64,000 nucleotides of DNA from the human T2T-CHM13v2.0 reference genome, Homo sapiens, in assembly GCA_009914755.4 (NCBI GenBank), contig CP068257.2:42080001-42144000 (forward strand). Reading direction: 5' to 3'. Each line of letters begins with the position of its first letter. Positions within the stretch are counted from its first letter, which is position 1. Under the pieces are notes generated by a model. That model did not search any database. It saw only the letters and a program-made list of their open reading frames with translations, and had not been told where the DNA came from. Positions 28,296 through 29,190 of the stretch are shown here, one piece after another. The translations under genes and the position numbers were made by a program.

Positions 28296-29190
28296 TTTGG
28301 GGCTGCAAGAATGTTTTGGGTTCAATAGCATGAAATTTAAGCCTTATCCAGCACCAGGATGACACCCCCATTTTACAGACTCTCAGGGATCAGGTGGGAT
28401 TCCCAAGACCTCACAGGTCACGATGAATGGCCTGGCTGGAACTGGCTTCCACGGACCCAGCATCATAGGCCTCCCTCAGAGCCAGGCGGGGTCCCTGAGT
28501 TCACTGGGAGGACGCGTCCACCCGGCTGTGCTGATTGTTTACACAGACACCACCTGGTTGATTTTCTCTGAACAGTGTGAAAATGACGCAGAAGGCTGGG
28601 GCCATGCACTAAGCTAGTGGCCGCGGGTTCATACCCATGGGCCCAAAAGAACAGCTGTGACCTCCTTGCCGCTCTATGTTTGGACATGGGAGCCTTGCAG
28701 GCACACACATAGGCACAAATGCACATACACTTGGGCACAAATGCACATACGGGCACACACGTGGACATGGGCACACATAGGCATACATGCACACATACAC
28801 ACGGGCACACACAGGCATACATGCACACGGACACATGCATACACACGGACACACATGCATACACGTGGGCACACGCACACACATGCACACACACTCGGAT
28901 GCGTCCAGGTACATCCTAGTTCTTCACGCCGTCGTTACTCTCGGGAGTTTCACAGCGACCCCCGAGGCGGCCTGACCGTGTGGCCCTCTGAGGGTGCAGT
29001 CTTTCCCTTTCCCTTGCTGCGGTGATGGGGACCCCATGCATGCCCTGAGCCCCCACGTCCTGAGCAAGGCCACCTTGTGCTCTGCCCCTGTGACCCTCCC
29101 TGCCGCCGTGCCCAGGAGGATCAGGGATGGGAGGCTGGCCCTGGCAGAGGAGCGGCAGATCTCAGTGACCTTGCCCATCTTCTCCCCCTA
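28296..29190. repeat. Intron-8 copy of an intra-window duplicated segment, including a CA-rich core
   Basis: About 85-90% identity by eye to 42,357-43,400 across the unique flanks and the CA-rich core at 28,690-28,905. Confidence 0.7.

What the first reader, a model, noticed from the sequence alone, without database searches (positions are those of the whole stretch)
28296..29190. Almost all of PDXK intron 8 has a diverged paralogue 14 kb downstream of the gene (42,357-43,400)
The two segments are collinear, in the same orientation, and about 85-90% identical by eye. The identity covers unique-looking flanks (aatgttttgggttcaata..., ...acgatgaatggcctggctggaactggcttccacggacccagcatcataggcctccctcagagcc...) and an internal CA-rich Z-DNA-prone core. 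It continues into the polypyrimidine tract before exon 9, but the flanking exons 8 and 9 have no homology in the downstream copy. The downstream copy has an extra ~160 bp and sits right after an Alu. Either this is an old local duplication of intronic DNA, or the two are copies of an unannotated interspersed repeat family that defines intron 8. Such paralogues can mediate non-allelic recombination that deletes the PDXK 3' exons.
Basis: seen in the sequence. Interest (0 to 1): 0.6.

Follow-up and report, generated by a model that had tools for sequence, protein, structure and literature searches.

The report
Old local copy of PDXK intron 8
About 1 kb of DNA between the human PDXK and CSTB genes is an old, apparently functionless copy of PDXK intron 8, made in the common ancestor of monkeys and apes and since partly overwritten by gene conversion; this is an ordinary kind of genomic fossil, not a new repeat family.

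Summary
Window 28304-29191 (copy A, most of PDXK intron 8) and 42355-43425 (copy B, between PDXK and CSTB) are collinear, on the same strand, and the only long non-Alu dispersed pair in the window.

Comparative loci show what it is. The sequence lies at the same place in intron 8 of orangutan, Aotus and Otolemur, and in part in fox and rabbit, so A is ancestral intron DNA. B is present in human, a catarrhine monkey and Aotus. It is absent from the sequenced, gap-free orthologous interval in tarsier, and undetected in Otolemur, rabbit and fox. A-B divergence is 1.15-1.6 times the catarrhine/platyrrhine orthologue divergence. B is therefore a copy of intron 8 made on the anthropoid stem, not a member of a repeat family.

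B's "extra 160 bp" is ancestral intron sequence that anthropoid A lost in a 157-bp deletion between two CCAGCAA repeats. A 91-bp perfect run (never reached in 20,000 permutations) marks later gene conversion. Neither copy shows constraint or a small RNA. How B was copied is unresolved; a local DNA-level event is favoured. The NAHR risk is theoretical only.

The parts
28239..29191 (+). PDXK intron 8 (gtaagt...ctag), between exon 8 (28130-28238) and exon 9 (29192-29329)
   Evidence: tblastn of PDXK protein maps exons 2-11; sequence read
28304..29191 (+). Copy A, the parental copy: intron 8 from position +66 to the acceptor. Strong homology to B runs through 29111 and weak homology through about 29186
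   Evidence: orthologous in Pongo, Aotus and Otolemur, and partly in fox and rabbit
28348..28353 (+). Deletion scar in copy A: a single CCAGCA where B has two CCAGCAA repeats 157 bp apart
   Evidence: Pongo and Aotus A share the deletion, and Otolemur, fox and rabbit introns retain the segment
28393..28483 (+). 91-bp tract identical to B 42601-42691: a gene-conversion tract
28699..28898 (+). CA-rich degenerate repeat core of copy A (34-bp period, alternating purine/pyrimidine runs up to 26 nt). It is almost absent from the Otolemur intron
42069..42354 (+). AluS-like element whose A-tail abuts the 5' end of copy B. No target-site duplication is visible
42355..43425 (+). Copy B, the derived copy, intergenic between PDXK and CSTB
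   Evidence: orthologues in a catarrhine monkey (L001-L003) and Aotus; absent in tarsier, undetected in Otolemur, rabbit and fox
42396..42559 (+). Ancestral intron segment retained only in B, bounded by CCAGCAA direct repeats at 42396 and 42553
42601..42691 (+). 91-bp tract identical to A 28393-28483
42802..42803 (+). Site of an 18-bp deletion in human B (relative to A 28595-28612). The monkey and Aotus B copies retain the 18 bp
42899..43138 (+). CA-rich core of copy B

Best explanation
Copy B is a dispersed, same-strand intrachromosomal duplicate of PDXK intron 8 DNA. The copied stretch was about 1.05-1.1 kb, running from intron position +66 to within 0-45 nt of the acceptor. It was copied about 10-14 kb downstream, into the PDXK-CSTB intergenic region, on the anthropoid stem: after the tarsier split and shortly before the catarrhine/platyrrhine split.

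The most likely mechanism is local and DNA-level. This would be template switching during replication, or repair synthesis at a break next to an Alu A-tail, using the nearby intron as template. This step is inferred.

Both copies then drifted neutrally, with these later events:
- Anthropoid A lost 157 bp between two CCAGCAA repeats.
- Human B lost 18 bp.
- The CA-rich core expanded independently in each copy.
- At least one short non-allelic gene conversion, in the hominoid lineage, made 91 bp identical. The direction was probably A to B.

Neither copy shows evidence of function beyond A being intron filler.
For: Shown:
- Self-similarity and a unique pair in the window.
- A is orthologous intron DNA. 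nhmmer profiles hit intron 8 of Pongo, Aotus and Otolemur (E 4e-45 for the left profile in one piece, 2e-17 for the right) and fox (E 3.6e-4). Alignments show the 5' block and the 'B-only' segment in Otolemur, fox and rabbit introns.
- B is orthologous in a catarrhine monkey (L001-L003) and in Aotus.
- B is absent in tarsier. About 415 bp without Ns separates conserved flanks that are 3.3 kb apart in human, with no profile hit at E <= 10.
- No B is found after the Otolemur orthologue of the pre-Alu flank, in the whole rabbit intergenic region, or in the fox flank.
- Right-flank distances: all A-B pairs are 17-21%, human-Aotus orthologues 16-17%, and comparisons to Otolemur 36-43%. The K2P ratio is 1.15 and the transversion ratio 1.64.
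- The deletion in A is bounded by a 7-bp direct repeat.
- Gene conversion: 0 differences in 91 bp against 15.7 expected, and 0 of 20,000 permutations reach this. Within the tract, human B is as close to Pongo A (4 differences) as human A is. The derived T at 28443 is shared only by the two human copies.
- Neutrality: A and B orthologue divergences (15-19%) are not below neighbouring DNA (13-14%). There is no Rfam family and no conserved fold.

Inferred: a DNA-level mechanism, because source and copy are 14 kb apart in the same orientation and there is no A-tail or TSD.
Against: - The copy covers almost exactly one intron and contains neither flanking exon. For random DNA breakpoints this is roughly a 1-3% coincidence, and it is what an RNA intermediate would give.
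- B's 5' end coincides with the end of an Alu A-tail, a typical L1-endonuclease hot spot.
- No base-exact empty site could be aligned, so junction microhomology, TSD and filler DNA could not be read.
- The left and right flanks give different apparent ages. I attribute this to older conversion but have not shown it.
- Genome-wide copy number was not measured.
Confidence: 0.8

Rival explanations
1. B is the remnant of a larger local duplication, one that originally included exon 8 or more upstream DNA. It was later trimmed by deletions, for example Alu-Alu recombination at its 5' side, so the intron-only extent is secondary.
For: B's 5' end abuts an Alu that has no visible TSD. The junction has been rearranged differently in each lineage: a full Alu in human, about 85 bp in the monkey, and two antisense Alus with loss of B's 5' half in Aotus. 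A same-orientation Alu lies in intron 7, 1.1 kb upstream of A.
Against: No intron 8 or exon 8 homology lies upstream of the Alu. The 3' end also stops at the intron boundary with no Alu there. The model needs two independent trimming events that both landed near splice sites.
Confidence: 0.1
2. B is an RNA-mediated copy. An excised or partly trimmed intron 8 RNA, or unspliced pre-mRNA, was reverse transcribed by L1 machinery and inserted into or next to an Alu A-tail. This is analogous to Type-2 snoRNA retroposons, which carry the downstream parental intron up to or near the 3' splice site.
For: - B is intron-only. It is 5'-truncated at +66 and ends within 0-45 nt of the acceptor, with no exon 9.
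- It sits immediately 3' of an Alu A-tail in the same orientation.
- A short AAAA follows B's end.
- The insertion is lineage-specific.
- There is precedent in PMC1687206. Type-2 snoRTs include the downstream intron up to the 3' splice site or lack its last 3-17 bp, and insert at hot spots shared with other mobile elements.
Against: - There is no A-rich tail beyond 3-4 A and no TSD.
- There is no snoRNA or other small RNA at the 5' end: 0 Rfam hits at gathering, only noise at E <= 10, and no conserved fold.
- Retrocopies land essentially anywhere in the genome (own knowledge). A landing 14 kb from the source in the same orientation is therefore very improbable.
Confidence: 0.07
3. A and B are two independent insertions of an unannotated interspersed repeat family.
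For: The repeat has a discrete ~1-kb unit with an internal simple-repeat core. I could not run Dfam or RepeatMasker, or search a whole primate genome.
Against: - A is continuous orthologous intron sequence from exon 8 to exon 9 in Otolemur, and partly in fox and rabbit.
- B retains exactly the intron segment that anthropoid A deleted.
- The A-B distance is only 1.15 times the 43-My orthologue distance. That is too small for a consensus-derived copy compared with an insertion more than 90 My old.
- There are no terminal repeats, TSD or A-tail.
- There are no further copies in the window or at other positions in about 290 kb of related loci.
- Translated scans of prokaryote-genome and metagenome collections found nothing. 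This is a weak test.
Confidence: 0.02

Closest known systems
Segmental duplications / low-copy repeats of primate genomes (small intrachromosomal, Alu-associated)
   Same: It is a DNA segment copied to a nearby site on the same chromosome in direct orientation. An Alu sits at one boundary. Both copies drifted afterwards and exchanged sequence by non-allelic gene conversion.
   Different: It falls below the usual operational thresholds of at least 1 kb and at least 90% identity (own knowledge). The aligned length is about 0.8-0.9 kb at 76-90% identity. It is much older, dating to the anthropoid stem, and is confined to a single intron.
Templated insertions / microhomology-mediated template switching (FoSTeS/MMBIR-type events)
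   Same: A short stretch is copied from a template a few kb away in cis and inserted without loss of the source. The orientation and proximity fit.
   Different: The junction microhomology could not be read because no exact empty site is alignable. The event is ancient and fixed, not a de novo rearrangement.
Type-2 snoRNA retroposons (Weber 2006, PMC1687206)
   Same: The copy starts inside an intron and runs to, or nearly to, the 3' splice site. It is lineage-specific and lies next to another mobile element.
   Different: It has no snoRNA at the 5' end, no A-rich tail and no ~14-bp TSD. It lies 14 kb from its source.
Interlocus (non-allelic) gene conversion between dispersed paralogues
   Same: A short tract of 91 bp is perfectly identical inside paralogues that are otherwise 15-19% diverged. 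The size is typical of mammalian conversion tracts (own knowledge).
   Different: The paralogues are non-coding and only about 1 kb long, so the event has no obvious consequence.

Membership tests
Segmental duplication (operational definition) | Aligned length of at least 1 kb | tested here: not met
   The main HSP is 819 columns. With the 5' block and tail, about 890 bp of A aligns to about 1070 bp of B
Segmental duplication (operational definition) | At least 90% sequence identity | tested here: not met
   76.3% overall, with the best segment at 89.6% over ungapped columns
Local duplication of unique DNA (parent/daughter relation) | One copy is orthologous in outgroups at the same position, and the other is lineage-specific | tested here: met
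   A is in intron 8 of Pongo, Aotus and Otolemur, and partly in fox and rabbit. B is only in human, a catarrhine monkey and Aotus. It is absent in tarsier and undetected in Otolemur, rabbit and fox
Local duplication of unique DNA (parent/daughter relation) | Paralogue divergence agrees with the age implied by presence/absence | tested here: met
   The A-B K2P distance is 1.15 times the catarrhine-Aotus orthologue distance and far below the distance to Otolemur
Interspersed repeat (transposable element) family | Many copies at unrelated loci | tested here: inconclusive
   There are only two copies in the 64-kb window, and none at other positions in about 290 kb of related loci. Weak translated scans of prokaryote and metagenome collections found nothing. 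No whole primate genome or Dfam search was available
Interspersed repeat (transposable element) family | Structural hallmarks: terminal repeats, TSD, or an A-tail | tested here: not met
   No flanking direct repeat of 7 nt or more, and only AAAA after B
Interspersed repeat (transposable element) family | Copies relate through a consensus, not as parent and daughter | tested here: not met
   B carries the ancestral intron 8 segment lost from anthropoid A and is collinear with the whole Otolemur intron
L1-mediated retrocopy / Type-2 snoRT (PMC1687206) | A-rich tail at the 3' end | tested here: not met
   The 3' junctions in human, monkey and Aotus show only AAA(A)
L1-mediated retrocopy / Type-2 snoRT (PMC1687206) | ~14-bp target-site duplication matching the empty site | tested here: not met
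   No direct repeat was found. An exact empty site is not alignable in tarsier or Otolemur, so decay cannot be excluded
L1-mediated retrocopy / Type-2 snoRT (PMC1687206) | 5' end at the mature 5' end of a snoRNA/scaRNA | tested here: not met
   Rfam at gathering gives 0 hits. At E <= 10 there is only noise, with nothing recurrent at the 5' block. RNAalifold gives -3.5 kcal/mol with no covariation support
L1-mediated retrocopy / Type-2 snoRT (PMC1687206) | 3' end at, or 3-17 nt short of, the parental 3' splice site | tested here: inconclusive
   Homology is supported for the last 80 nt (p 0.001-0.02) but not resolved within the last 45 nt (p 0.06). Exon 9 is absent
Non-allelic gene conversion | An identity tract longer than the divergence allows, flanked by diverged sequence | tested here: met
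   A 91-bp run with 15.7 differences expected, reached in 0 of 20,000 permutations
Non-allelic gene conversion | Within the tract, paralogues of one species are closer to each other than to orthologues, or share derived states | tested here: met
   Human A and human B differ at 0 sites, human A and Pongo A at 4, and human B and monkey B at 7. The T at 28443 occurs only in the two human copies. The T at 28411 occurs in hominoid A and human B, against G in Aotus A and monkey B. Ape B and Old World monkey A were not available
Functional non-coding element (enhancer or ncRNA) kept in two copies | Divergence between orthologues lower than in neighbouring neutral DNA | tested here: not met
   Human-Aotus divergence is 16-19% for A and 15-17% for B, against 13-14% in DNA flanking B. 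The conversion tract varies in Pongo, Aotus and the monkey

The most novel reading that the evidence does not exclude
Copy B is a retro-copied excised intron: intron 8 RNA, 5'-trimmed to +66 and ending at or near the 3' splice site, was reverse transcribed and inserted at an Alu A-tail close to its own transcription site. This would be an intron-only retrocopy without a snoRNA, or an RNA-templated repair event using local nascent or lariat-derived RNA.
Probability: 0.07. Interest if true: 0.55.

Novelty: new member of a known kind. Interest (0 to 1): 0.22.

Why it matters
The main value is as a clean negative. It removes a candidate "new repeat family" and shows that the pair is an ordinary ancient local duplication.

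There are three minor points of interest:
- B is a roughly 50-My-old snapshot of PDXK intron 8. It preserves 157 bp that the real intron later lost, which lets one order the indels and see the CA-rich core expand in both copies.
- The 91-bp conversion tract shows that paralogues only about 1 kb long and 15-19% diverged, 14 kb apart, still exchange sequence in the hominoid germline.
- An unequal crossover between them would delete PDXK exons 9-11. Biallelic PDXK loss causes a PLP-responsive neuropathy (own knowledge). The identity tracts are too short for this to be a likely recurrent event, and no such allele was found in the literature I searched.

Tried and rejected
- **Translated scans for further copies.** Scans of genome contigs and metagenome contigs found none. 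The test has little power because only two peptide patterns were used and single-copy human DNA is rare in those collections.
- **Protein-database search with the 70-aa ORF.** It returned a single hit and not even the human ORFs, so it cannot count copies. It did give the monkey contigs L001-L003.
- **Wrong first assumption about L001-L003.** I took them for a New World monkey. Distances show a catarrhine monkey, and I reinterpreted the earlier three-way analysis accordingly.
- **CSTB retrocopies.** The Semnopithecus and Plecturocebus "cystatin-B" genes proved to be intronless retrocopies, so copy B of apes, Old World monkeys and a second New World monkey was not obtained.
- **Orangutan locus.** It ends about 600 bp before B.
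- **Base-exact empty site.** This failed in tarsier and Otolemur because the interval evolves too fast.
- **Quartet site patterns.** Species-consistent sites are not in excess overall (6 against 6; 4 against 5). I therefore do not claim gene conversion in Aotus, despite shared motifs and a 75% bootstrap grouping.
- **Rooted trees.** Rooting on Otolemur makes the anthropoid clade trivial, so I used distances instead.
- **Small RNA or conserved structure.** None found. The mir-297-like hits are TG-repeat noise.
- **The 85-bp junction piece in L001.** It aligns equally well to the Alu 3' part and to Otolemur DNA, so this is unresolved.
- **Literature.** Nothing on this paralogue or on a PDXK-CSTB NAHR deletion.

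Full report
**Context.** tblastn with the PDXK and CSTB proteins places PDXK exons 2-11 at 9606-31670 (+) and CSTB at 49817-51881 (-). I supplied both sequences from memory, and the exon matches validated them. The window is therefore human 21q22.3. Reading the junctions gives intron 8 as 28239-29191. The finding's first segment is most of that intron. The second lies between the two genes, 10.7 kb past the PDXK stop codon.

- Self-BLAST gives one HSP, 28348-29111 against 42553-43345 on the plus strand: 76.3% identity over 819 columns, E = 3e-166. A separate 47-bp block, 28307-28353 against 42355-42401, is 87% identical.
- Apart from Alus and tandem arrays, this is the only long dispersed pair in the window. 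Nucleotide profiles of the element hit only these two places.
- Identity varies by segment:

| Segment | Identity (ungapped columns) |
|---|---|
| 5' block | 82% |
| Left flank | 89.6% |
| CA-rich core | 75% (poorly alignable) |
| Right flank | 85% |
| Last 80 bp before exon 9 | 68% |

- The last 80 bp are more similar than random window segments. Empirical p is 0.014 for human A against human B, and 0.0013 for Aotus A against the monkey B. The last 45 bp alone are not significant (p = 0.06). Exon 9 has no counterpart (p = 0.62).
- Exon 8, the first 65 nt of the intron, and the DNA upstream of the Alu show no homology.
- B starts directly after the A-tail of an AluS-like element.

**Related loci.** A 70-aa ORF over the best-conserved part served only as a search handle. 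It found nothing in prokaryote or metagenome contigs. In the protein collection it found one cluster, carried on three ~3-kb contigs, L001-L003. These contigs are orthologous to the B locus, matching window 42320-45215. By distance they come from a catarrhine monkey: 8.3-8.6% from human, against 13-14% for Aotus.

A PDXK protein search gave annotated loci for Aotus (L004), Otolemur (L005), Pongo (L006), rabbit (L007, which includes CSTB) and fox (L008). A CSTB search gave the tarsier locus, L011.

**A is ancestral intron DNA and B is the copy.**
- Profiles built from A and B hit intron 8 of Pongo, Aotus and Otolemur. They also hit the start of fox intron 8 (E = 3.6e-4).
- The Otolemur hit spans the profile in one piece, including the ~157 bp that human A lacks. 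Pongo and Aotus A are split exactly as human A is.
- The alignment shows the 5' block (TTTGGGTTCAATA...CCAG) and the "B-only" segment (CAGCAAGTGGTGAATTTCC...TTCTGTGA..GGGG) in the introns of Otolemur, fox and rabbit.
- In B the segment is bounded by CCAGCAA at 42396 and 42553. The monkey has the same repeats at 169 and 325. A has a single CCAGCA. So anthropoid A lost one repeat-to-repeat unit by a microhomology-mediated deletion after B was made, and B preserves the older state.
- The 18-bp gap in human B is a human-lineage deletion, because the monkey and Aotus B retain those bases.
- The CA-rich core is nearly absent from the Otolemur intron, so it expanded later in both copies.

**When did B arise?**
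- B is present in human, the catarrhine monkey and Aotus. In Aotus two antisense Alus replace its 5' half.
- In tarsier, conserved blocks on both sides are collinear. Human 40015-41096 matches L011 19490-18751, and human 44361-45034 matches L011 18379-17725. They are about 415 bp apart with no Ns, against 3.3 kb in human. Neither profile gives a hit even at E <= 10.
- Otolemur has the orthologue of the DNA just upstream of the human Alu, and about 700 bp of non-B sequence follows it.
- Rabbit (whole intergenic region) and fox have blocks orthologous to DNA downstream of B, but no B.
- In the right flank, which conversion has affected least, all nine A-B comparisons are 17-21%. Catarrhine-Aotus orthologues are 16-17%, and every comparison with Otolemur is 36-43%. 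The K2P ratio is 1.15 and the transversion ratio is 1.64.
- B therefore arose on the anthropoid stem, shortly before the platyrrhine split.

**Gene conversion.**
- A 28393-28483 and B 42601-42691 are identical over 91 bp. Outside this run the flanks differ at 17% of sites, so 15.7 differences are expected. None of 20,000 permutations gave a difference-free run that long.
- Constraint does not explain it. Within the run Pongo A differs at 4 sites, Aotus A at 13 and the monkey B at 7.
- Human B is as close to Pongo A as human A is (4 differences each). T at 28443 is shared only by the two human copies. T at 28411 is shared by hominoid A and human B, against G in Aotus A and the monkey B.
- This fits a conversion in the hominoid lineage, probably from A to B. 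Exact timing needs ape B sequences, which I could not reach.
- A wider signal is not established. Quartet counts show no excess of species-consistent sites. The left flank does look younger than the right.

**Function.** None is indicated. Orthologue divergence of both copies is at or above that of neighbouring DNA. Rfam finds nothing at gathering scores in the window. At E <= 10 it finds only noise in B and in the Otolemur and fox introns. The only block conserved from fox to human has no conserved fold.

**How was B made?**
- The junctions carry no direct repeat of 7 nt or more. Only AAA(A) follows B.
- An intron-only extent next to an Alu A-tail resembles Type-2 snoRNA retroposons. These carry the parental intron to, or nearly to, the 3' splice site (PMC1687206).
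- However, the small RNA, the A-tail and the TSD are all missing here. A retrocopy landing 14 kb from its source in the same orientation would also be very improbable.
- I therefore favour a local DNA-level copy, by template switching or repair synthesis at a break near the Alu tail. A trimmed larger duplication and an RNA-mediated copy remain as rivals.
- No base-exact empty site could be aligned, so this step remains an inference.

- The cores do contain many alternating purine/pyrimidine runs: up to 26 nt, covering 112 of 211 nt in A and 142 of 251 nt in B. This is compatible with "Z-DNA-prone".
- NAHR is possible in principle and would remove exons 9-11. But the perfect tracts are only 91, 34 and 24 bp, and no such deletion appears in the literature I searched.

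**Verdict.** This is a real but ordinary feature: an ancient, small, local duplicate of intron DNA with later deletion and gene conversion. It is not a new repeat family and not a functional element.

Noticed in passing
window 28005-28052 and 28087-28134: A 48-bp direct duplication (93.8% identical) includes the exon 8 acceptor. The upstream copy keeps 'cactgccag|gtgatgga', a decoy 3' splice site 82 nt before the real one. Using it would shift the reading frame.
   Followed up: partly
window 52056-52091: Three tandem copies of CGCGGGGCGGGG lie upstream of CSTB on its strand. This is the dodecamer repeat whose expansion causes EPM1. Three copies is a normal allele size (own knowledge).
   Followed up: partly
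window 30783-30944; 9704-9774: Perfect (100% match) tandem arrays: 32 bp x 5.1 in PDXK intron 9, and 25 bp x 2.8 just after exon 2. Their perfection suggests recent expansion or a VNTR.
   Followed up: no
window 16695-17081; 18632-19225; 62066-63046: Three large minisatellites, two GC-rich: an 11-bp unit x 34, a 51-bp unit x 11.7, and a 20-22-bp unit x about 48.
   Followed up: no
window 26309-26603 and 2307-2492: Degenerate TG-rich arrays resemble the reverse complement of the element's CA-rich core (69-73% identity). They are simple-repeat similarity, not further copies of the element.
   Followed up: partly
L009 10001-10297 (Semnopithecus); L010 10001-10297 (Plecturocebus): Proteins annotated or clustered as cystatin-B are encoded by intronless 297-bp genes away from the PDXK-CSTB locus. 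These are CSTB retrocopies with intact ORFs in an Old World and a New World monkey.
   Followed up: no
L004 about 51110-51550 (Aotus): Two antisense Alus occupy the place of the 5' half of copy B, a lineage-specific rearrangement of the same junction that carries an AluS in human.
   Followed up: partly
L001 46-131: The ~85 bp between the pre-Alu flank and copy B in the catarrhine monkey align about equally well to the 3' part of the human Alu and to Otolemur DNA at the orthologous place. Whether this is an internally deleted Alu or ancestral DNA is unresolved.
   Followed up: partly
window 42904-43076 (minus strand): Weak mir-297-like matches (25-28 bits against a gathering score of 90) fall in the TG/CA-rich core of copy B. 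They are most likely simple-repeat noise.
   Followed up: partly
window 5197-5967 and 61239-61867: These regions match their own reverse complement (70-75% over 650-800 bp). They are probably inverted Alu pairs and so potential hairpin-forming sites.
   Followed up: no
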